Source of the DNA: a virus
DNA: 39,633 bases
Virus genome (UHGV): UHGV-1978634
Strand: one strand, 5' to 3'
The notes under the pieces are model-generated. The model saw nothing but the letters and a program-made list of their open reading frames with translations. It was not told where the DNA came from and searched no databases. Numbering within the stretch: position 1 is the stretch's first letter; each line of letters opens with the position of its first letter. This document shows positions 14,715 to 35,500 of this stretch, in pieces. The translations under genes and the position numbers were made by a program.

Positions 14715-16136
14715 CTACTTGAATGTAACGATATAAATCCCAGAATCTTTTTGCAGTTTGTAATTCCTGCCATCTTCAATCAATTCTACATTCTTACCAT
14801 CTGATTTAGCAATTTCTGCATTCATTCCTGAGTACCAGAAATAAGCATTCATAAACCATTTAGAAGTCAGGTTAAATTTCACAATATTTTTTAGGATTGG
14901 ATAATCAAGATAGATCTGCTTAAGATAATGAGGAAGGTTAGGCTCATTTCTTATATCAATCTTAACTAACCCAGAACGTTTATCCATGCTGTCAATAGAT
15001 GCAATAACTGATTCTAACTTCCTGATTTTATATTCAGACTCGTATTTGAAAGCATTCACATAAATAGATGCCATTGCTACCGAAATGAATAAATAAAATG
15101 CAGTTATCAAATATACAGCATATCTTACCTTAGAATCTTTTATCTTTAGCAAAGGTGTAAGTGCGACCATTAGAAATGCAGGGAAAGACATCAGCACTCT
15201 GGATGATATTATAGCATTGCTAAACATTGCGTAGGGAATAAACAACAATAAGAATGAAATTGGCAATGAGACGGCAAATAACAATGAATCAAGGTATCTT
15301 CCACTTGTGAAAGATTTAACTGCTTGCCACAGACACACTGCGTAAGAAATAACAACGAGCACTGAAACAACTGCTAGTTGAGTCGTCGATAACGAAGTTA
15401 ACAATGAAAATATATAGTTAATATTAGATAAGAACTCGCTAATTCCATCACGATTTAAGTGAACTATTGTCGTGTGGTTGTCAACGTATACATCTGTAGA
15501 AAGCAATGTAGTTGTAGTCTGAACAATGGCAAAGGTGACAACGAATATCACAACGCTGCTTAACACGTATCTCATATTTTCCTTTTGCGTTTTACTATTA
15601 AGCAAGTTGTTTAAAGACTGAAGAATGACAAGGCAGACAAATACAGCAAACGAAGTTTGATAGAAAAAGCTTGCTGCAGTGAGAAGCAGCAGTCTGAAAA
15701 TAAAATTGAATTTATGTTCATACCTAACGGCCGCCAGCATAGCCAAAGAAAACGATGCCGACATTCCAATAACATCAATGTGGTATGACATGTTTTCAAT
15801 ATAAAATGGAGAACAAATTAAAACACATATCGTGATTGTTTTTGCAATCCATTGCTTGCCAAACACAGATTCAGCAAAGTAATTGCAGGCTACTATCATG
15901 ATAACAAATGAAACAACAAGGTTCAGTTGATAAACATCTGGCGAGATCAACTTTCCTGATGAATTCAAAAGGATGTAATACAACTCGGTAAGAAATCGAC
16001 CTTGAGAAGCTAGCCCGATATATCCGTATGAATATCTTGCTACATCATCCACAAAAGGAGGCATATAAAAGAATGGAAGGAAGAAGCAAGCGACTATAAG
16101 TATCGCTGGCATTTCATATCGCGTTAATTTAAACAT
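14715..16136 (-). CDS. Serotype-specific O-antigen glycosyltransferase (GtrC-type polytopic membrane protein)
   Basis: 473-aa highly hydrophobic multi-TM protein, AT-rich, immediately downstream of gtrB in the same operon. Confidence 0.75.
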
Positions 16137-17052
16137 CTTTAGACCCCTTAATTATATATCTTGGTCTTGATTTTACTTCGACATATATTCTGCCAATGTA
16201 TTCCCCAAGCACACCAATACCTATCAACTGAATTCCCCCCAGGAAAAGAATTGAAACCAATAGCGATGGATAACCACGGACAGCATTACCGAACACCAAT
16301 GTGTCGAAAATCATCCACACCCCGTAAAGGAACGAGAGTCCCGCAACAAGTAGACCGATGTAAGTCCACACGCGCAAGGGGAAGGTCGAGAAACTTGTAA
16401 TCCCCTCAAGCGCCAGGTTCCAGAGCTTCCAGCCATTGAACTTTGTGCTTCCGGCAACGCGTTCAGCACGGATGTATTCAACAACATCCGTCTTACCGCC
16501 AACCCAAGATAAAACGCCTTTCATAAACAGGTTACGCTCTGGCAGTAGTTTGATATTTTCTACCATCTCTCGTGACATAAGACGGAAGTCACCAACGTTC
16601 TCTTCAATCTGCGGATTACTAATTTTGTTGTGAAGTTTATAAAACCACTCAGCAGTTTTACGCTTTAACCTACCATCAGTTGATCTGTCAGAGCGCTTTG
16701 CCAGCACCATATCAGCACCTGCCTGCCACTTTTCAATAAGATGAGGAATGACCTCAATCGGGTCTTGCAGGTCAACATCAATTGGAATCACGGCATCGCC
16801 AGTTGCATGGTCTAACCCTGCAAACAATGCTGGTTCTTTACCAAAGTTGCGTGTAAATGACAGCGGAACAACTAGCGGATCAGAAACAGCCAGAGCATTA
16901 ATAATTGACTCCGTAGCGTCTTTGCTTCCGTCATTTATGAAAACAATTTCCACTTCATATGGCTTCAACTCTTCGAATTCACGTACCGTTTTATAAAAAA
17001 TTGGTATCGCTTCTTCTTCATTGAAGACAGGAACTACAAGAGATATCTTCAT
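16129..17052 (-). CDS. gtrB: Bactoprenol glucosyltransferase GtrB (GT2 family)
   Basis: 307 aa; N-terminus [17 protein letters not shown].., DVDLQDP motif, two C-terminal TM helices. Confidence 0.9.
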
Positions 17053-17411
17053 TTCGCATCCCTAAAGACAATGAACTTTGAATAGACGAAACCGCACACC
17101 AGGCTGATGGCGGAAAAGGTGACGAGAGTGATAATTGGAGGAAGTGAACATCTATCAGCAGCCCATCCAACAGTTGCACTCAGTGTTCCCATGAACCCGA
17201 CAAATAACATGTAGCGCATCGTTGTAGTCGATGCTTTGAATGTGAATTTTGCATTCGCGAAGAAGCTAAAACTCACAGCCACAACGAAACCTGCGAAGTT
17301 TGCCAGAGCCTGATTGGTATGCGCGGCATAGATACATACACCAAAAACCACCCAGTGTATAAGTGTGTTCAGCACACCAATCGAGGTGTACTTTGCAAAT
17401 AGCTTTAACAT
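17049..17411 (-). CDS. gtrA: GtrA flippase-like small membrane protein
   Basis: 120-aa four-TM protein directly upstream of and overlapping gtrB. Confidence 0.85.
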
Positions 17412-19726: not shown

Positions 19727-19963
19727 ATCTTATTCACTTTTGGCTGCAAGGTGTAGCCACCACGGTAAGCTCCATCAGCATGGGCGAATTCATATACCTG
19801 TACACTATTACGATGCAGAAATAAAACATGCATATTTTTGATAGGCTATGTTAATGATTTTTAAATATTTATTGTCTTATCAAGAATGTCTGTAATACCC
19901 CTATTAACCCGTCACATATAAACAATTTATAAAAATTTTCTTAACGCTATCACATTATTTAAT

Positions 19964-20263
19964 TTACCTTTCCCGATAGGTATATAGTTCATCATGTGCA
20001 ACCTTGCGATTGCGATGTATTCCCATTTCTTTCTCTACGCGTATTGCTGCATTGCGTAATGTTCTTGAGGTCGCGACTTCTCTTGAACTTACATTTTTTA
20101 ATGTAGCCGATTTAATGCAACGTTGAATTTGCCTCTGGATATACATCCGCTGGTCTGTCTGAGTCTCCTGACGATAATCCATCAGCACATCTTGCCAGCG
20201 AGCCGCAGCTCTGCGCCAAAGCCCTTTATTTTCAAGTTCTTCAGCTTTTTTATCTTTAACCAT
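19964..20263 (-). CDS. PerC-like transcriptional activator (moron-like, AT-rich)
   Basis: ORF 19964..20278; ATG at 20263 with AGGAG RBS; motif KAEELENKGLWRRAAARWQDVL resembles the PerC family. Confidence 0.5.
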   Translation of the reverse strand: MVKDKKAEELENKGLWRRAAARWQDVLMDYRQETQTDQRMYIQRQIQRCIKSATLKNVSSREVATSRTLRNAAIRVEKEMGIHRNRKVAHDELYTYRER

Positions 20264-20289
20264 ACAGTCTCCTATCACACTAAATATTA

Positions 20290-20325
20290 AATAATAACTA
20301 TCAGGTTTATCAGATAGTTATTATT
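20290..20325. repeat. Perfect 13-bp inverted repeat (aataataactatc / gatagttattatt, 10-bp spacer) upstream of the PerC-like gene
   Basis: Read directly from sequence. Confidence 0.6.
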
Positions 20326-20689
20326 ACAGTTAAGTATAGGGGCGGTAATAATAACCTAAGATGGTGGTGAAATTCAAGCCAGATGCCGTTATGCAACTCA
20401 ACAGAAATAAGCTGTTGCTTTTTATCTCACTATTCATTTGTCTCATTTCCAGCTATACTCATTGTTCACACAACACAAAAGGCATAGAAATGACAGTGTA
20501 TGGCATATCAGAAAACAGTATTGTTCACTTACGTGAAAAAAATGGATAATGGCTTGTGTTGCACATTATTAAAAATGGCGACATTATATATCACCTCAAA
20601 AATACAGACAAAGAAATGAACGTCACACTTCAGGATATTATCCCCAATAAATAATCAAATGAGCGTGGCGCACGATGCCCCGCGCTATT

Positions 20690-20779
20690 CTACTTATCAC
20701 CCCAGCGGCAAATCGAAAACACAACCAGTGCCACCGCTATTGCAACTCCTACCGTTGCGAATGCTTCAGGCCAGCTCAT
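20690..20779 (-). CDS. Small hydrophobic peptide (29 aa), translationally coupled to the upstream gene
   Basis: MSWPEAFATVGVAIAVALVVFSICRWGDK; AGGAGG RBS; ATGA overlap with the stop of the 217-aa gene. Confidence 0.35.
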   Translation of the reverse strand: MSWPEAFATVGVAIAVALVVFSICRWGDK

Positions 20780-21429
20780 TGATTCACCTCCTGCGGCGGT
20801 TCTGGTAGATGCATCCAGTGGGTTACACCGTCAATTGGTTCATCGTCGTCGTACTCCAATGCGGCTATATAGAACCCGTCACGACGAGAATAAGAAATCC
20901 CGGACATTACAATGCCATCCGAAACAACTATAATGTCACCCGTTTCTTCCGGCATTCGCTCACTACAGCTTATCCAACTATCCGGAGTTACCGGAGAGTT
21001 GCCGGGTTCTTTAATGTGCAAGCGAGGCTCACCATCTTTTGGTTCAGGCCACTGGCGCTCCATGTTGATCTTCAATTTATCTTCCATAGCAGCGGTAATT
21101 TCAGCATCGCTGATGCCAGCACGGCGCTGTGCATCCCACAACAGGAAATGCATATCAGCCCACTCGCTGAGATCGTCTGGTTCGGCTGCGGCTTCCAGAG
21201 CCTCTTTTGAGAGGTGTTTCAGTGGACCAATGGGGCCAACGCAGCCAAATGTGGAGTCAGACCATTTGGCATGCTCGTGGCGAATCAGTTCGCGTTCCAG
21301 TGATGCCAGTGCAATTCGTGCCAGTTCCTTAAGATTTTCGCTATATGGTGAAGTATTATCACGGTTGATTACGTGATTAGCTGTATCTATGAGAACTTGC
21401 TTTTGTTCTTCTCTGGTCATAGTGGTCAT
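20776..21429 (-). CDS. Phage early-region protein with DUF551-like C-terminus
   Basis: 217 aa; C-terminal ..THWMHLPEPP.. typical of DUF551 proteins. Confidence 0.55.
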   Translation of the reverse strand: MTTMTREEQKQVLIDTANHVINRDNTSPYSENLKELARIALASLERELIRHEHAKWSDSTFGCVGPIGPLKHLSKEALEAAAEPDDLSEWADMHFLLWDAQRRAGISDAEITAAMEDKLKINMERQWPEPKDGEPRLHIKEPGNSPVTPDSWISCSERMPEETGDIIVVSDGIVMSGISYSRRDGFYIAALEYDDDEPIDGVTHWMHLPEPPQEVNQ

Positions 21430-21430
21430 A

Positions 21431-21730
21431 TCACATCACCCTGAAGCCGTTGCATTTACGTAAGAAATCGCAGATATAGCCCTTCATTTTTTCATGCCAA
21501 TCTCGATCATTCCCATTGCACCAACCATCAGGTGGAGTCCAGTTTTCTATCAGAGCAGCCATTTTCTTTGCTTTCGCCGGAGTAGCTGTTGCGGTATCGC
21601 AGTAATGACGAGTGTCAACAAACTTATCCATGCCATCGATATCAAGTACGCAAAACCATGTGTGATTCGGCATTTCAACAGATGGTATTTGTTGCCCACG
21701 TCGACGTTTATCAATAAGACATACAGTCAT
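21431..21730 (-). CDS. Hypothetical protein (99 aa)
   Basis: ORF tightly packed in the minus-strand operon. Confidence 0.5.
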   Translation of the reverse strand: MTVCLIDKRRRGQQIPSVEMPNHTWFCVLDIDGMDKFVDTRHYCDTATATPAKAKKMAALIENWTPPDGWCNGNDRDWHEKMKGYICDFLRKCNGFRVM

Positions 21731-22272
21731 GGTTCCACCTTCTCTATTTGCTTAAGACCGTCTCTCACTGCATTAAGTACGCGTTCCAGATACTGGTATT
21801 TCGGGTTTGGTACCGTTGGCCAGTCGGCATACCACGGATCATCACCAAAGAGATTCAGCAGTTTGTTACCGACGCCGAAACAACAGCAGCTTTCTTTTAC
21901 GTCATCGGCGTTTTCCGCCTCGTCCCACATTTCGCGAGCCTGTACCGCGTCGATTTCTTTCTCTCTTCGTAACTTTATGATTTCTGACTTCACGAAAAGC
22001 AGATTTGCATCGTTGTCATCGTCGACCGTGCTTAGCAGTTGAGGGTCGAAATTGTCGATTAGATAGTCGTTGCTAACTCGCTTAATGAACGTCTGCACAT
22101 CATCACCGCCCATAGCAAACCAAGCCGCAGTCCACGCCTTTCCGTAGCAGGTGATGGTGATTCTTCCCTTACCAGGTTCGTAGTTTTCAATCATCACTCG
22201 AACCGGATCTAGTCGCTCTGCACCGGTTATAACGAATGACAACACATCAATCTTTTCAACCGTTACACTCAC
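21727..22272 (-). CDS. Hypothetical acidic protein (181 aa)
   Basis: ORF with 4-nt overlap to the downstream gene. Confidence 0.55.
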   Translation of the reverse strand: MSVTVEKIDVLSFVITGAERLDPVRVMIENYEPGKGRITITCYGKAWTAAWFAMGGDDVQTFIKRVSNDYLIDNFDPQLLSTVDDDNDANLLFVKSEIIKLRREKEIDAVQAREMWDEAENADDVKESCCCFGVGNKLLNLFGDDPWYADWPTVPNPKYQYLERVLNAVRDGLKQIEKVEP

Positions 22273-22703
22273 TGGTTGCCTCCTTTGCGAAGCTGGTCGG
22301 CGAACTCGTTAAGTGATATGTAGCAATCTCCAAATGTTAACGAACCGCTCGACTGCATATGCTCCATAGCCATCTCCACGCCCTGCGCCCGTACTTCAGC
22401 CAAGAAAGCGTCGGTGGCTGTGGTTTCGATATCGTTAATTTCAGGAAGAATCTCTTCCCATGTAGCGATATCGCCATTCAAATGCCATCCGGCAATTCCA
22501 CTGGAGTTATCCGCAACACTCCGAACGGCTTCAATAGTTTCATGCATTGCCGCATTCTCCGCCGCCAGCGCCGCGCACTTGGCCTCCGCTTCAGCAAATT
22601 TACGGACAAGATATTCAGCGTTTGTTTCGTTAACCTTTAAATCTCGTGGGATGCATTTACCTTTCAGAAATCCATCCATCTCAATTAGTGTCATTTGTTT
22701 CAT
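22269..22703 (-). CDS. Hypothetical protein (144 aa from ATG 22703)
   Basis: ORF 22269..22787; GGAG RBS precedes the ATG at 22703, which also removes the overlap with the HNH gene. Confidence 0.5.
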   Translation of the reverse strand: MKQMTLIEMDGFLKGKCIPRDLKVNETNAEYLVRKFAEAEAKCAALAAENAAMHETIEAVRSVADNSSGIAGWHLNGDIATWEEILPEINDIETTATDAFLAEVRAQGVEMAMEHMQSSGSLTFGDCYISLNEFADQLRKGGNQ

Positions 22704-22746
22704 TTTTTTCCACTCCGCCACATCGCATTCAGATATTTGTTTTGAT

Positions 22747-23325
22747 TTACTGATGGAGCTTGCGACGGTTTGATTTAGGATTTCCATTACGATTCCCCCT
22801 GTTTCCGTAATTTAATTTTCTGCAATCGATTGGTGTGGGGCGCAGGTAACCATATATTTCTACTTGATATTTTGCTAGAGCATACGCATATTTTGCACCA
22901 TCACATGTTGCATATGAGCCAAGGTGATGTAGTTTTCCATTAACACCTATGTATGCTCTCCATCCATAAGCACACCTTTCTGTGCCTATTTCAGTTCCTT
23001 TATTTCTACTTGTGTTGCTATTGTTTTCCCTACTGGAGACATCTCGTAGGTTAATAAACCTGTTGTCAGCTTTATTTCTGTTGATGTGATCAATTACATT
23101 TACTGGCCATTTCCCGGTAACATATAACCAAGCTAGTCTGTGCGCTAAATACCATTTTTTATTAATATATATCCTTATGTATCCCATCGAGTGCGTACAG
23201 CCAGTTGGTTTGAAACCAATTATATCCCCATTATTGGATTTAATTATCTTCTTGAAAACCCCAGTTTCTTTATCGTAGTGAATGTTGCTAATGAGGTATT
23301 CATATGAAATGTCATTTTTTGACAT
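22747..23325 (-). CDS. HNH homing endonuclease (HNH_3 / AP2-like)
   Basis: 192 aa; ..[54 protein letters not shown].. ; strongly AT-rich ORF. Confidence 0.8.
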
Positions 23326-23488
23326 AATCCTTCTTACTCCTCAAAATCATTTCAAGATATCTGTTGTCGTTAACAGAACCGAAACTATTTCTCTTAAGCA
23401 ATTCCTCTCTCGATGGCATTGGCTTTACGCGTTGGCGAATAATCATTTCTGCCGGAAGAATGCCGGGATTGTATGCAAGTCCTCTCAT
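23312..23488 (-). CDS. Hypothetical small protein (58 aa)
   Basis: GGAGAG RBS; ATGA overlap with the upstream stop; 3-prime end overlaps the HNH start. Confidence 0.3.
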
Positions 23489-23775
23489 GATTTACTCTCC
23501 ACGAACTGGTCAACAGCCATGCTAAGTGATACACCTAAAGTCTCGATATGCTGCTGAATATCCTGTAGCGTCTGCGCCTGAGATAACAGGATTTCACGGT
23601 TGCATAACTCTTTGACCAGATGCTCAAACTTGCTGTAATAACCGATACGACTTAGTGTTTCTTTCCCTGCATTCTCGCCTTCTTTTATAATTCCTCTTTC
23701 GCTAAGAATCAGATCGTGTTTGGTTCCGGTAATAACGTATTTTCCGAGGTCGATGTTTAGCTTCATTGTTTTCAT
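23485..23775 (-). CDS. Hypothetical protein (96 aa)
   Basis: ORF 23485..23925; internal ATG at 23775 with GAGGA RBS preferred because the longer form overlaps the upstream gene. Confidence 0.5.
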
Positions 23776-23785
23776 TGTTAATTCC

Positions 23786-24079
23786 TCAGTCATTACTGAT
23801 AGCGCCATAGCGTGAGCGGTAATTACGCAGGCGCGGGTCAATTTCAGGGAAGTGGGTATATGTGGCTTTGCGGAATGGTCGGATTGATGTCTGGTAAATT
23901 CGCTCGCGTTCTTCTTTCTCTGCAAGCCATATACAGTGGCGAAATTCCTTTTCCTCTTTCGTTTCCTGCGGTAGCGACATTATCAGGTCGTAGTTTTTTC
24001 TGAATTTATCCAGCACCTCCGATACGGAATTGCCGGAGCAGCGGCGCGGGTCATCCGCACCATACAGAGGCGCTGGCAT
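23786..24079 (-). CDS. Hypothetical protein (97 aa)
   Basis: ORF track; operon context. Confidence 0.5.
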   Translation of the reverse strand: MPAPLYGADDPRRCSGNSVSEVLDKFRKNYDLIMSLPQETKEEKEFRHCIWLAEKEERERIYQTSIRPFRKATYTHFPEIDPRLRNYRSRYGAISND

Positions 24080-24102
24080 AATGGAATCCTTATGTTGCTA
24101 AT

Positions 24103-24486
24103 TTAGAAGGGAATTGAATCGTCGTATTCAGGATGATTTTGATGATTGCTACTTTGTTGCTGTTGGCTGTTTCCTGAAGTTGCAAATCCAATCTTTGCAT
24201 TCAGTAATTCAAGAGTGATTGATTGACCATTTTGCCCCTGATAAACATCAACCCTGATGTTTTCTCCGGTAATTTCCACAATGCCACCTTCAACAAGAAC
24301 GCTACGGTAGTAATCCGCTTGCGCTCCCGGCTTGGCAAATACAACGGCGCTGTAGTTTGTCCATTCTTTCTTTTTTGTCTGGCGATCGTAATACTGAACG
24401 CCAGCACGGATGTTGAATCCGATATTTTCCCCGGCCTGAAACTCTCTTGCGGGCTTGTTTAGTCTTACAGTAATCGAATGTGCCAT
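24103..24486 (-). CDS. Phage single-strand DNA-binding protein-like (OB fold, acidic DDSIPF tail)
   Basis: ORF 24103..24576, ATG at 24486; C-terminal ..EYDDSIPF resembles the SSB tail DDDIPF; adjacent to erf. Confidence 0.6.
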   Translation of the reverse strand: MAHSITVRLNKPAREFQAGENIGFNIRAGVQYYDRQTKKKEWTNYSAVVFAKPGAQADYYRSVLVEGGIVEITGENIRVDVYQGQNGQSITLELLNAKIGFATSGNSQQQQSSNHQNHPEYDDSIPF

Positions 24487-25091
24487 TAAGCAGCCGCTCC
24501 TTCTAATTCGTCTCGTCTGATGTTGTAAACGTCCTGCGCTTTGTGCTGCTCCGGTGTGCCTTCGAGCATCTTCCACGCTTTGGCGAACGCCTGTTTAAGC
24601 TCTTCCACGTTGTTTTTCTGCATTGCTGCGTCAGTGAATGCTTTTAGAACCTGTTCAGGTGTAGGTGATGGTTTTGATTGCTTTGCTGCTGCGTTCTGCT
24701 GATGTTTATGCTCGTCTGTATCTGCATCTTTCGCATCATCAATGCCGAATAAACCATTGAGGCAATACTTGCGTGCATAAGAGCTTGTAGCTCCCGTAAC
24801 TTGTGCAGAATCCATTCCTTTCTTGCTTTCTTCCTCTCGTGCAAGAGCGGTTGCCGTATGACTGTTTTCGCCATCGGTAATAGTTGCCGTGGCTTTCACG
24901 TAATACCGATCACCAATCAACACAACTTCATCGCTGATTGATAAAAACAGGCCATTCAGTAACGGCTTAACGCCTTCAAGAATGTCTTCGCAGCTTCTGT
25001 ATTTATATTTGCCGAATGAGTTGTACTGATTCTTTGGCGCGTTCAGATTCTCCTGAATAGCTGCCAGTCTTGCGTAAAATTCTTTGCTCAT
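24486..25091 (-). CDS. erf: Erf single-strand annealing recombinase
   Basis: MSKEFYARLAAIQENLNAPKNQYNSFGKYKYRSCEDILEGVKPLLNGLFLSISDEVVLIGDRYYVKATATITDGENSH.. matches the P22 Erf family as I recall it. Confidence 0.85.
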   Translation of the reverse strand: MSKEFYARLAAIQENLNAPKNQYNSFGKYKYRSCEDILEGVKPLLNGLFLSISDEVVLIGDRYYVKATATITDGENSHTATALAREEESKKGMDSAQVTGATSSYARKYCLNGLFGIDDAKDADTDEHKHQQNAAAKQSKPSPTPEQVLKAFTDAAMQKNNVEELKQAFAKAWKMLEGTPEQHKAQDVYNIRRDELEGAAA

Positions 25092-25180
25092 ATGATTGTT
25101 CTCAGAATGGACATGGCCCAAGGAAATAACGCTGATTTAATACTTCAGTCTTTGCCGCATTTAAAAATACGCGAACACCT

Positions 25181-35093: not shown

Positions 35094-35168
35094 TTTTTAT
35101 TTGGGTCAGTCGTATAAAGGTCATTACGGAAGGCTGTTAACCTTCTTATCGTGGTTCGAGTCCACGCT
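35094..35168 (+). tRNA. tRNA-Asn (anticodon GTT)
   Basis: Manual cloverleaf: acceptor gggtcag/ctgtccc (one mismatch), anticodon stem gaagg/ccttc, loop ctGTTaa, T-arm cgtgg-ttcgagt-ccacg, 3-prime gcca. Confidence 0.7.
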
Positions 35169-35173
35169 GTCCC

Positions 35174-35249
35174 GCCAAATATGCTGGTTTAGCTCCAATG
35201 GTAGAGCAGTCGCCTTGTAAGCGAATGGGTAGCGGTTCAAGTCCGTTAA
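35174..35249 (+). tRNA. tRNA-Thr (anticodon TGT)
   Basis: Manual cloverleaf: acceptor gctggtt/aaccagc, D-arm gctc-caatggta-gagc, anticodon loop ctTGTaa, T-arm agcgg-ttcaagt-ccgtt, 3-prime acca. Confidence 0.8.
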
Positions 35250-35500
35250 CCAGCACCATAACTGAGCCGTAGCCACTGGCTATCCTGAATTCATCAGTGA
35301 TAGTTACGCTGCGGCCTTCTACACATGACCTTCGTGAAAGCGGGTGGCAAGAGGTTGCGCTAACAACCTCCTGCCGTTTTGCCCGTGCATATCGGTCACG
35401 AACAAATCTGATTGCTAAACACAGTAGCCTGGATTTGTTCTATCAGTAATCGACCTTATTCCTAATTAAATAGAGCAAATCCCCTTATTGGGGGTAAGAC

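What the first reader, a model, noticed from the sequence alone, without database searches (positions are those of the whole stretch)
20776..24079. Early-left accessory cluster with an AT-rich free-standing HNH endonuclease
Eight or more tightly packed small minus-strand genes lie between erf/SSB and xis. The HNH gene is conspicuously AT-rich compared with its neighbours, suggesting a recent homing-endonuclease insertion; the other proteins are unassigned and this region is where lambdoid phages often keep anti-defence or host-takeover functions.
Basis: partly seen in the sequence, partly recalled or inferred. Interest (0 to 1): 0.5.

Follow-up and report, generated by a model that had tools for sequence, protein, structure and literature searches.

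The report
Homing endonuclease cassette in phage accessory operon
An ordinary block of small early accessory genes in a P22-like temperate phage carries a rare 624-base mobile cassette: an AT-rich HNH endonuclease gene inserted precisely into the end of a conserved small gene, which is a clear but unsurprising example of a selfish "homing" gene in lambdoid phages.

Summary
Window 20776-24079 has eight close-packed minus-strand genes between erf/SSB and xis. The HNH gene (22747-23325) has 37% GC against 46% for the window.

The region is the usual ea / exo-xis accessory block of lambdoid phages. In gene order it encodes Abc2 (a characterised anti-RecBCD protein), DUF5405, DUF2737, HNH, an Ea22-like protein, a phiTE_072-family protein, DUF7739, and a dATP/dGTP-pyrophosphohydrolase-DUF551 fusion.

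Comparison with relatives shows the HNH gene is a discrete 624-nt insertion (about 22758-23381) in the 3' end of DUF2737.
- A near-isogenic E. coli prophage (KS-NP019) has the empty site.
- The cassette brings its own diverged replacement end for DUF2737.
- A 57-nt remnant of the native end (22700-22756) survives just downstream of the HNH stop.
- The cassette is in about 1% of DUF2737-bearing phages and E. coli genomes.
- It is always at this site and 96.6-100% identical, with five upstream and at least seven downstream neighbour types.
- A 70%-identical homologue occupies the same site in a divergent lineage.
- The modelled fold best matches homing endonuclease I-HmuI.

Verdict: a free-standing HNH homing-endonuclease gene, a new member of a known kind. 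Cleavage and homing were not tested. Interest is moderate to low.

The parts
23786..24079 (-). abc2, anti-RecBCD protein (97 aa)
   Evidence: PF11043 Anti-RecBCD_p2, full length, E 6.2e-65. phrog_656, E 4e-55. Annotated abc2 in HK97, Sf6 and HK022.
23485..23775 (-). DUF5405 / P2 Orf83-like small protein (96 aa; start taken as the ATG at 23775)
   Evidence: PF17399, E 5.5e-5. phrog_154, E 6e-32. Same length and position as Sf6 gp24. No relative by sequence in the PDB.
23312..23488 (-). DUF2737 gene, chimeric allele (58 aa). The 5' 106 nt are the native lambdoid allele and the last ~70 nt are supplied by the cassette.
   Evidence: PF10930, E 5e-29. Native alleles are 54-55 aa and end ..KYLNAMWRSGKK. 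This allele ends ..[16 protein letters not shown].
22758..23381 (-). 624-nt inserted cassette relative to empty sites. It consists of the replacement DUF2737 3' end plus the HNH ORF. The boundaries can slide by 16 nt, to 22742-23365, depending on which allele is compared.
   Evidence: Global alignments to HK022, Sf6 and HK97 and to the collinear KS-NP019 prophage, where window 23382 and 22757 are adjacent bases.
22747..23325 (-). HNH endonuclease gene (192 aa). An N-terminal beta domain is followed by the HNH_3 motif (D79-H80...N88/N92...N101/N104) and a C-terminal AP2-like beta3-alpha domain. The start overlaps the DUF2737 stop by 14 nt.
   Evidence: PF13392, E 7.8e-15. phrog_99, E 3e-53. PADLOC homing-endonuclease model (HEase), E 1e-7. 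AF2 model pLDDT 85.8. Best PDB match is I-HmuI 1u3e, followed by AP2 domains. GC 37%.
22700..22756 (-). 57-nt remnant of the native DUF2737 3' end. It ends in the native ATGA overlap with the next gene's start.
   Evidence: 97-100% identical to the HK022/Sf6 native gene end. Present after the HNH stop in all 21 filled loci. Called as a 25-aa 'DUF2737 (weak)' gene in some assemblies.
22269..22703 (-). Ea22-like protein (144 aa): conserved Ea22/HK97-gp37-type N-terminus (MKQMTLIEMDGFLKG...), a coiled coil, and a variable C-terminus
   Evidence: phrog_614, E 6e-49. N-terminus identical to the start of HK97 gp37 and the HK022 Ea22-like protein. Called as 144 aa in syntenic locus L010. No Pfam family.
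21727..22272 (-). phiTE_072-family protein (181 aa, GTG start), function unknown
   Evidence: phrog_3451, E 3e-87. PF26211 on all homologues. Good AF2 model (pLDDT 86.4) with no convincing solved-structure relative.
21431..21730 (-). DUF7739 protein (99 aa), homologue of Sf6 gp22
   Evidence: PF24881, E 1.2e-20. phrog_1239, E 7e-55. No relative by sequence in the PDB.
20776..21429 (-). Two-domain protein (217 aa): dATP/dGTP pyrophosphohydrolase (former DUF550) plus DUF551
   Evidence: PF04447, E 7.9e-42, residues 49-144. PF04448, E 4e-14, residues 151-213. Weak similarity to the MazG-like enzyme MazZ, 7ody.
24103..24486 (-). Flank: SSB-like protein with a C-terminal DDSIPF tail (127 aa from the ATG)
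   Evidence: phrog_44, E 2e-28. Translation.
24486..25121 (-). Flank: Erf single-strand annealing protein
   Evidence: PF04404, E 2.3e-44.

Best explanation
The region is the standard early-left (PL-transcribed) accessory block of a P22-like lambdoid phage, equivalent to the P22 ea region or the lambda exo-xis region. One gene in it is a selfish element.

A 624-nt cassette encoding a free-standing HNH endonuclease, with I-HmuI-like and AP2-like DNA-binding modules, sits in the 3' end of the very conserved small gene DUF2737. The cassette keeps the operon working. It supplies its own diverged last ~20 codons and stop for DUF2737, and its start codon overlaps that stop. In the Salmonella variant and in the 70%-identical metagenome homologue, its ORF runs in frame into the leftover native DUF2737 end, whose ATGA overlaps the next gene. 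In this window a 1-nt frameshift ends the ORF 43 nt earlier.

Proposed mechanism (inferred). When an HNH-plus and an HNH-less lambdoid genome share a cell, through co-infection or a phage meeting a resident prophage, the enzyme nicks or cuts the uninterrupted DUF2737 3' end of the HNH-less genome. The break is repaired from the HNH-plus copy by the phage recombination functions encoded just upstream (Erf, SSB, Abc2-modified RecBCD), which copies the cassette in. The filled allele is protected because the native sequence is split by the insert and its upstream half is replaced by a diverged version.

Shown: the insertion, its exact site, the duplicated and diverged target end, rarity, near-identity across backgrounds, an intact catalytic motif, and purifying selection.

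Inferred: cleavage specificity, homing, and immunity of the filled site.
For: Filled versus empty site:
- Window 24095-23382 and 22757-22550 are contiguous in the collinear KS-NP019 prophage at 96% identity.
- The same 624-nt gap appears against HK022, Sf6 and HK97.

Target duplication:
- The replacement end is ..[19 protein letters not shown].
- The 57-nt native remnant CCATCAGTrAATCAAAACAAATATCTGAATGCGATGTGGCGG...ATGA follows the HNH stop in all 21 filled loci.

Rarity at a fixed site:
- HNH DNA is in HK629 only among 50,697 phage records, against 142 records holding the DUF2737 5' part.
- It is in 17 of 5,426 E. coli genomes (18 places), against 1,559 DUF2737 places.
- It is always immediately after DUF2737.

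Recent spread:
- The 742-nt DUF2737+HNH unit is 96.6-100% identical across loci that fall into 5 upstream classes and have at least 7 different genes after the remnant.
- Backgrounds diverge within about 30 nt of the HNH stop.

The cassette travels as a unit. In metagenome locus L020, a 70%-identical HNH follows a DUF2737 homologue. The 5' part of that homologue is only 53% identical to the window. The replaced end is 70% identical and the HNH gene 65-69%.

Functional protein:
- 20 of 21 copies have an intact ORF.
- pN 0.21 against pS 0.79 versus L020.
- D79, H80 and N92 are invariant among 60 homologues, and N88, N101 and N104 nearly so.

Homing-endonuclease architecture:
- HNH_3 and the PADLOC HEase model.
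- AF2 model pLDDT 85.8, with I-HmuI the top PDB hit (probability 1.0) followed by AP2 domains.
- 28 of 60 homologues hit Pfam AP2.

Foreign composition: GC 37%, GC3 33%.

More distant homologues (36-42% identical) lie at unrelated sites, as expected for a homing-endonuclease family.
Against: - No cleavage, homing or co-conversion experiment exists for this protein, and no paper on it or on DUF2737 function turned up in the searchable library.
- The distribution could also arise from one illegitimate insertion followed by ordinary homologous recombination in this notoriously mosaic region. The remnant lies exactly at a known type of module boundary.
- Pfam AP2 does not hit this particular protein. 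The Foldseek E-values are weak (1.4e-3 for I-HmuI, 0.4 for AP2).
- Low prevalence (about 1%) shows that any drive is weak or recent.
- Some copies are broken: L027 has a premature stop, and L004 has an 8-nt deletion at the junction.
Confidence: 0.72

Rival explanations
1. Passive mosaic module. The HNH cassette entered the DUF2737 end once by illegitimate recombination, and has since moved between lambdoid phages only by ordinary homologous recombination in the conserved flanks. The enzyme does not target the empty site. It may be domesticated, for example as a general nicking enzyme that stimulates recombination, or as a weapon against competing DNA.
For: - The ea region is highly mosaic. No record covers 80% or more of the 3.45-kb query, although 467 phage records and 2,816 E. 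coli genomes match parts of it.
- The DUF2737 5' part is 95% identical or more in nearly all phages. The remnant with its ATGA overlap is a conserved gene boundary, so both can act as recombination substrates without a break.
- Prevalence is only about 1%.
Against: - On the downstream side only about 30 nt are shared before backgrounds diverge, yet at least 7 different downstream genes are found. That many exchanges through so short a tract are easier to explain if breaks are made nearby.
- The HNH-plus-sequence-specific-DNA-binding architecture and the I-HmuI fold match are typical of site-specific homing enzymes.
- Two HNH lineages diverged to 70% identity keep the same site and the same duplicated-end structure.
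Confidence: 0.2
2. Inactive relic. The insertion was a homing event in the past, but the gene in this window is now a decaying passenger with no activity.
For: - Relative to the Salmonella variant and the L020 homologue, the E. coli/window allele has a 1-nt frameshift that removes the C-terminal extension into the remnant.
- Broken copies exist: L027 has a premature stop, and L004 has a junction deletion.
- Pfam AP2 is not detected in this copy.
Against: - The 192-aa ORF is intact in 19 of 21 loci and a 208-aa form is intact in one more.
- The catalytic D-H...N...N residues are present.
- The frameshift affects only the low-confidence tail beyond residue ~187 (pLDDT below 50 at residues 174-186).
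- pN/pS of about 0.26 versus the 70% homologue indicates purifying selection over the longer term.
Confidence: 0.06
3. Ancestral gene lost elsewhere, or a packaging HNH. Either the HNH gene is an original component of the operon that has been deleted from most relatives, or it is a terminase-associated HNH like HK97 gp74.
For: HNH proteins are required for cos cleavage in HK97-like phages (established knowledge). Deletions are common in accessory regions.
Against: - Empty sites carry an intact, uninterrupted DUF2737 gene, whereas filled sites carry the native gene end plus a second, diverged copy of it. That is the footprint of an insertion, not of a deletion.
- GC3 is 33% against 39-54% for the neighbours.
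- Copies are 96.6-100% identical while the flanks vary.
- The gene lies in the early-left operon, far from the terminase genes, in a P22-like phage, and it is absent from about 99% of relatives, which package normally.
Confidence: 0.02

Closest known systems
I-HmuI (Bacillus phage SPO1 HNH homing endonuclease, PDB 1u3e)
   Same: It is the best solved-structure match to the AF2 model (Foldseek probability 1.0). Both have an N-terminal beta-sheet DNA-binding region followed by an HNH beta-beta-alpha-metal motif and a further C-terminal DNA-binding module. Both are phage-encoded.
   Different: [quoted passage not shown] Its C-terminal module is helix-turn-helix. Here there is no intron (no Rfam intron hit), the gene is free-standing, and the C-terminal module is AP2-like. 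Sequence identity is only 19%.
Free-standing homing endonuclease genes of T4-like phages (MobE, HNH; SegA-G, GIY-YIG)
   Same: These are stand-alone ORFs wedged between or into conserved genes. They are sporadic among close relatives and spread by intronless homing with co-conversion of flanks (PMC2790892, PMC2988022). Like them, this cassette sits in an operon without disrupting it.
   Different: The host here is a temperate lambdoid phage or prophage, not a lytic T-even phage. The cassette carries a diverged duplicate of the target gene's 3' end and leaves a 57-nt native remnant. Activity is untested.
HNH-AP2 endonucleases (the HNH_3 + AP2 architecture found in phages, cyanobacteria and ciliates, proposed as the ancestors of plant AP2/ERF factors; from general knowledge)
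   Same: HNH_3 is followed by a three-strand-plus-helix domain. 28 of 60 homologues hit Pfam AP2. The model's C-terminal domain matches plant AP2 domains.
   Different: Pfam AP2 does not score on this copy itself, so membership rests on homologues and on a weak structural match.
Escherichia phage HK629 gp36 ('HNH endonuclease', YP_007111810)
   Same: It is the same gene, 99.5% identical at the DNA level, at the same site after DUF2737.
   Different: HK629 is a Lambdavirus with a Sak4-type recombination module, while the window is a P22-like phage with Erf. The annotation names the gene only. I found no description of the insertion site or its structure.
Lambda exo-xis region / P22 ea region accessory genes (Ea22, Ea8.5, orf60a-63; Abc2)
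   Same: Same position, between the recombination genes and xis, and the same early PL transcription. The genes are small, mosaic and mostly of unknown function. An Ea22-type N-terminus and the portable DUF551 domain are present (PMC7093339, PMC10834534). Abc2 is full length.
   Different: The gene content is a different mosaic draw (phiTE_072, DUF7739, DUF5405, PPHyd-DUF551). None of the lambda orf60a/61/63/73 genes was seen here.

Membership tests
HNH (beta-beta-alpha-metal) endonuclease, HNH_3 subfamily | Match to the family profile above the curated threshold | tested here: met
   PF13392, 54.7 bits against a cut-off of 24.8, E 7.8e-15, residues 59-102. phrog_99 'HNH endonuclease', E 3e-53.
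HNH (beta-beta-alpha-metal) endonuclease, HNH_3 subfamily | Catalytic His (general base) and the metal-binding or structural Asn/Asp residues are present | tested here: met
   In an alignment of 60 homologues, D79, H80 and N92 are invariant, and N88, N101 and N104 are conserved in 90% or more. All are present in the window protein.
HNH (beta-beta-alpha-metal) endonuclease, HNH_3 subfamily | Beta-beta-alpha fold resembling solved HNH nucleases | tested here: met
   The AF2 model (pLDDT 85.8) has strands at 77-80 and 93-96 and a helix at 98-105. The top PDB hit is I-HmuI, probability 1.0, but with E 1.4e-3 and TM 0.39-0.43 because the domains are arranged differently.
Free-standing homing endonuclease gene | Presence/absence polymorphism at one fixed site among otherwise homologous genomes, with an intact empty site | tested here: met
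   There is a clean 624-nt indel against the collinear KS-NP019 prophage and against HK97, HK022 and Sf6. The cassette occupies 18 of 1,559 DUF2737 places in E. coli genomes and 1 phage (2 of 142 records). All 21 filled loci are at the same site.
Free-standing homing endonuclease gene | Own start and stop, and not inside an intron or intein | tested here: met
   The ATG at 23325 overlaps the DUF2737 stop and the gene has its own stop at 22747. No intron family appeared in the Rfam scan. DUF2737 terminates before the HNH body, so this is not an intein.
Free-standing homing endonuclease gene | Target sequence disrupted or altered in the element-bearing allele (self-immunity) | tested here: inconclusive
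   The native sequence is split by the insert and its upstream half is replaced by a diverged copy. This is consistent with immunity, but the recognition site is unknown.
Free-standing homing endonuclease gene | Site-specific cleavage of the element-less allele | not testable with these tools
   Needs purified protein and substrate DNA.
Free-standing homing endonuclease gene | Super-Mendelian, unidirectional transfer with co-conversion of flanks in mixed infection | not testable with these tools
   There is only indirect support. The polymorphic patch just upstream of the insert (AGTTTCGGTTCTGTTAACGACAAC) is the same in all filled loci aligned across the junction, whatever their upstream class.
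AP2 DNA-binding domain | Match to Pfam PF00847, or an AP2-like three-strand sheet packed on a helix | tested here: inconclusive
   There is no PF00847 hit on this protein even at E 10. 28 of 60 aligned homologues hit it, with best E 1e-15. The model has strands 115-118, 121-128 and 131-138 and helix 141-158, and matches TEM1 and WRI1 AP2 domains at probability 0.7-0.96 but E 0.3-1.
Abc2 anti-RecBCD protein (P22) | Full-length match to the family profile, in the position next to the erf recombination genes | tested here: met
   PF11043, residues 1-97 of 97, E 6.2e-65. The gene lies directly downstream of the SSB-like gene and erf.
Abc2 anti-RecBCD protein (P22) | Binds RecC and modifies RecBCD activity | not testable with these tools
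   This is a biochemical property, known for P22 Abc2 from the literature (general knowledge).
dATP/dGTP pyrophosphohydrolase (PF04447, former DUF550) | Match to the family profile | tested here: met
   PF04447, positions 1-96 of 97, E 7.9e-42. Activity of family members in Z-genome phages is described in PMC12884076. Activity of this protein was not tested.
Terminase-associated HNH (HK97 gp74 type) | Encoded next to the terminase/portal genes of a cos phage and universally present in the lineage | tested here: not met
   The gene lies in the early-left operon between DUF2737 and an Ea22-like gene, and is absent from about 99% of relatives.

The most novel reading that the evidence does not exclude
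The cassette is an actively homing element. Its breaks at the DUF2737/next-gene boundary are themselves a cause of the mosaic joint at this exact position. The endonuclease would repeatedly stimulate short-homology, Erf-mediated recombination between co-resident lambdoid phages and prophages. That would shuffle the downstream accessory genes (at least 7 different neighbours within about 30 nt of the cassette) and give HNH-plus phages a marker-exclusion advantage over resident HNH-less prophages. If so, homing endonucleases would contribute to lambdoid accessory-region mosaicism and would not be mere passengers in it.
Probability: 0.15. Interest if true: 0.55.

Novelty: new member of a known kind. 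Interest (0 to 1): 0.33.

Why it matters
The finding gives a precisely delimited example of a free-standing HNH homing-endonuclease cassette in temperate lambdoid phages, with matched empty-site and filled-site pairs. Most well-studied free-standing homing genes come from lytic T4-like phages.

The cassette shows how such an element can enter a tightly coupled operon without breaking it. It brings a substitute gene end and reuses the native one.

It also provides a ready experimental system. The predicted target is the conserved DUF2737 3' end, present in about a quarter of complete E. coli genomes. With it one could test whether homing occurs between phages and resident prophages, and whether it promotes mosaic exchange.

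For the rest of the cluster the result is sobering. The gene content is an ordinary mosaic of ea / exo-xis accessory genes, and Abc2 is the only member with a known host-directed function.

Tried and rejected
- NCBIfam gave no hit for any of the eight proteins.
- PADLOC gave only the homing-endonuclease model for HNH, plus a sub-threshold REase_II hit (E 0.004) for the phiTE_072 protein, which I do not trust.
- PDB sequence searches for the HNH, PPHyd-DUF551, phiTE_072, DUF5405 and DUF7739 proteins gave nothing significant. The best was MazZ at E 0.65 for the PPHyd domain.
- The Rfam scan of the whole window found only two tRNAs. There is no group I/II intron around the HNH gene.
- The one-genome-per-species scan found only 38-41% identical homologues, in alphaproteobacterial MAGs.
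- I asked whether phage HF4s carries the cassette-type DUF2737 end without the HNH gene, which would be a deletion derivative. It does not. It has the native end, and the long BLAST overlap came only from residual similarity.
- I asked whether other HNH genes occupy the same site. The 'HNH endonuclease' annotations in Salmonella phage VSe13 and the second one in E. coli EC5931 are Ea22-N-terminus proteins with no Pfam HNH match and no similarity to this HNH. They appear to be mis-annotations.
- The long plus-strand ORFs antisense to the cluster (for example 21494-22042, 182 aa) were not pursued, because every minus-strand partner has a family match.
- Literature searches found no paper on DUF2737 function or on a lambdoid free-standing HNH homing gene.

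Full report
**What the window is.** The 39.6-kb window is a P22-like (Lederbergvirus-type) lambdoid phage genome. Its early and regulatory half is a mosaic, 95-97% identical in pieces to HF4s, Sf101, HK620, Sf6 and CUS-3. The finding covers the distal part of the leftward early operon.

**Check of the observation.** The ORF table shows eight consecutive minus-strand genes that fill 20776-24079. They are separated by 4-nt or 14-nt overlaps or by gaps of 1-43 nt.
- Two mechanical ORFs are longer than the real genes. The 146-aa ORF 23485-25 should start at the ATG at 23775, giving 96 aa like Sf6 gp24.
- The 172-aa ORF 22269-22787 should start at the ATG at 22703, giving 144 aa. This is the start shared with HK97 gp37 and the HK022 Ea22-like gene, and the one called in the syntenic assembly L010.
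- Upstream lie an SSB-like gene with a DDSIPF tail and erf.
- Downstream, after a further 1.6 kb, lies an excisionase-like gene.
- The HNH gene is 37.0% GC with GC3 of 33%. The window is 46.1%, and the six neighbours that lie wholly outside the cassette are 42-51%. The gene falls in the lowest 4% of equal-sized windows.

**What the genes are.**
- 23786-24079 is a full-length Abc2 anti-RecBCD protein (PF11043, E 6e-65).
- 23485-23775 is a DUF5405 / P2 Orf83-like protein.
- 23312-23488 is DUF2737.
- 22747-23325 is an HNH_3 endonuclease.
- 22269-22703 has the conserved Ea22-type N-terminus and a coiled coil.
- 21727-22272 is a phiTE_072-family protein.
- 21431-21730 is DUF7739.
- 20776-21429 fuses a dATP/dGTP pyrophosphohydrolase domain (PF04447, E 8e-42) to the portable DUF551 domain.

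PF04447 proteins hydrolyse dGTP and dATP in Z-genome phages (PMC12884076). DUF551 is a shuffled C-terminal module of some Ea22 variants and of YfdS (PMC10834534).

This is the P22 ea region, or lambda exo-xis region, in one of its many mosaic versions. Parts of it occur in 467 phage records and 2,816 of 5,426 complete E. coli genomes, but no record covers 80% of it. So "the other proteins are unassigned" is only partly right. Abc2 is characterised, one protein has a known enzymatic domain, and the remaining five belong to named families of unknown function.

**The HNH gene is an insertion.** At the DNA level the gene is present in only one isolated phage, HK629 (two records, 99.5% identical), among 50,697 phage records. 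By contrast, 142 records carry the conserved 5' part of DUF2737. It is present in 17 of 5,426 E. coli genomes (18 places, all 99.3% identical or more), against 1,559 places with DUF2737. In every case it lies directly after DUF2737.

Alignments across the junctions and gapped global alignments show one 624-nt insertion relative to HK022, Sf6 and HK97. The clearest comparison is the E. coli KS-NP019 prophage. It has the same gene order (erf, 127-aa gene, abc2, DUF5405, DUF2737, Ea22-like, phiTE_072, DUF7739) but no HNH gene. Window 24095-23382 and 22757-22550 align to it at 96% identity and are adjacent there.

**Anatomy of the cassette.**
- Upstream, similarity to native alleles ends inside DUF2737 at about 23366-23382.
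- The last ~20 codons are a diverged version (..[19 protein letters not shown] in place of ..N[DQ]NKYLN[EA]MWRSGKK*).
- The HNH start codon overlaps the new stop by 14 nt.
- Downstream, the HNH ORF ends at 22747, inside a 57-nt copy of the native DUF2737 3' end (22700-22756). This copy is 97-100% identical to HK022 and Sf6.
- The copy still ends in the ATGA that overlaps the next gene's start. It is present in all 21 filled loci examined. Some assemblies even call it as a 25-aa gene with a weak DUF2737 hit.

In a Salmonella variant (P0001, 208 aa, 114 member sequences) the HNH ORF reads in frame through this remnant (..RRKHPSVNENKYLNAMLRSGKK). The same is true of a 70%-identical metagenomic homologue (P0002). 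The E. coli/window allele has a 1-nt frameshift that stops it 43 nt before the next gene. The in-frame form is probably ancestral, and it would preserve translational coupling on both sides.

**Evidence that it moves as a unit and has spread recently.**
- Across 21 filled loci, the 742-nt DUF2737+HNH unit is 96.6-100% identical.
- The 300 nt upstream fall into five classes. These are abc2 directly (three sequence classes), DUF5405, and a RecT/Gp157-type module.
- At least seven different genes follow the remnant, and the backgrounds diverge within about 30 nt of the HNH stop.
- The recombination modules nearby also differ: Erf, RecT, Sak4, Rad52-like.
- In metagenome contig L020 the 70%-identical HNH again follows a 58-aa DUF2737 homologue and is again followed by a remnant. 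There the 5' part of DUF2737 is only 53% identical to the window. The replaced end is 70% identical and the HNH gene 65-69%.

So the replaced end belongs to the cassette, and the window's DUF2737 is a chimera of a native E. coli-lambdoid 5' part and a foreign 3' part. More distant HNH homologues (36-42% identical) are not next to any DUF2737 homologue. That is the usual pattern for homing-endonuclease families.

**Is the protein a plausible homing enzyme?**
- It matches HNH_3 above threshold and the PADLOC homing-endonuclease model.
- D79, H80 and N92 are invariant in 60 homologues, and N88, N101 and N104 nearly so.
- 28 of those homologues also hit Pfam AP2, although this copy does not.
- An AlphaFold model (pLDDT 85.8) shows an N-terminal sheet, the beta-beta-alpha motif and a three-strand-plus-helix C-terminal domain.
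- Its best solved-structure match is the homing endonuclease I-HmuI. Plant AP2 domains also match, weakly.
- The ORF is intact in 20 of 21 loci.
- Against the 70% homologue, pN is 0.21 and pS is 0.79, which is saturated. This indicates purifying selection.
- One copy has a premature stop and one has an 8-nt junction deletion, as expected if some copies decay after invasion.

**Mechanism proposed.** What is shown is the insertion, its site, the duplicated and diverged target end, its rarity and near-identity across backgrounds, and an intact nuclease. What is inferred is the following. When HNH-plus and HNH-less lambdoid genomes share a cell, the enzyme cuts or nicks the uninterrupted DUF2737 3' end. 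The break is repaired from the HNH-plus genome by the phage's own recombination functions encoded just upstream, and the cassette is copied in. The filled allele escapes because the site is split and half of it is replaced.

The main rival is passive spread by ordinary recombination in a very mosaic region. I cannot exclude it without experiments. I rate homing at about 0.7 and the passive module at about 0.2.

**What led nowhere.**
- NCBIfam and PDB sequence searches were empty.
- The phiTE_072 protein gave a confident model but no credible structural relative.
- Rfam found no intron.
- Other "HNH endonuclease" annotations near this site, in VSe13 and EC5931, are unsupported.
- No literature on DUF2737 function or on this element was found.

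**Verdict.** The cluster is an ordinary lambdoid accessory block. Its one notable feature is a cleanly delimited free-standing HNH homing-endonuclease cassette with a fixed site in DUF2737. That makes it a new member of a known kind, of moderate to low interest, but a tidy system for testing homing between temperate phages and prophages.

Noticed in passing
window 19730-20690 (PerC-family ORF 19964-20278, minus strand): An AT-rich island (GC 27-37%) lies between the accessory cluster and xis. It carries a PerC-family transcriptional-activator ORF (PF06069, E 8.5e-15). The island has no near-DNA match in 50,697 phage records or 5,426 complete E. coli genomes. Only one phage (phi456, 57% aa identity) has a protein homologue. 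It is present in the syntenic assembly locus L010. It is probably a rare regulatory moron of the Pch/PerC type.
   Followed up: partly
window 20690-20779, minus strand: A 29-aa hydrophobic ORF (MSWPEAFATVGVAIAVALVVFSICRWGDK) has a start codon that overlaps the stop of the PPHyd-DUF551 gene (ATGA). It has no PHROG match and is not called in related assemblies. It may be a small membrane peptide.
   Followed up: partly
window 14715-17411, minus strand: Three ORFs of 473, 307 and 120 aa lie between the tailspike-side genes and the integrase. The first has the lowest GC of the window (about 32%). By position and size they look like a gtr-type O-antigen modification (serotype-conversion) module. 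HF4s annotates a bactoprenol glucosyltransferase in the matching region.
   Followed up: no
window 35103-35258, plus strand: Two tRNA genes, tRNA-Asn(GTT) and tRNA-Thr(TGT), lie in the late-regulatory region.
   Followed up: no
L037 2716-3342 (Salmonella phage VSe13) and L005 2994-3455 (E. coli EC5931): Two proteins annotated 'HNH endonuclease' next to DUF2737 have no Pfam HNH match. The VSe13 protein shows no similarity to the window's HNH and carries an Ea22-type N-terminal motif (RDLKVNETNAEY). These look like propagated mis-annotations.
   Followed up: yes
L027 (IMG/VR UViG_643692035_000004) and L004 (E. coli ETEC1747): These are degenerate copies of the cassette. L027 has a premature stop in the HNH gene after residue 93. 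L004 has an 8-nt deletion at the DUF2737/HNH junction that removes the DUF2737 stop. Both are consistent with decay of some copies after invasion.
   Followed up: partly
window 23312-23325 and L020 308-324: The overlap between the DUF2737 stop and the HNH start contains an A6 run (GTCAAAAAATGA). It is conserved between the window and the 70%-identical homologue in L020. This is probably just coding constraint on both frames. A role in translational coupling or frameshifting was not examined.
   Followed up: no
L007 3580-4059 (Sf6 gp26) versus window 24080-24102: Sf6 has an extra 159-aa gene annotated 'endonuclease' between abc2 and ssb. The window lacks it, with only 23 nt between the two genes. 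The Sf6 protein has no Pfam match. This is another presence/absence polymorphism in the same operon.
   Followed up: partly
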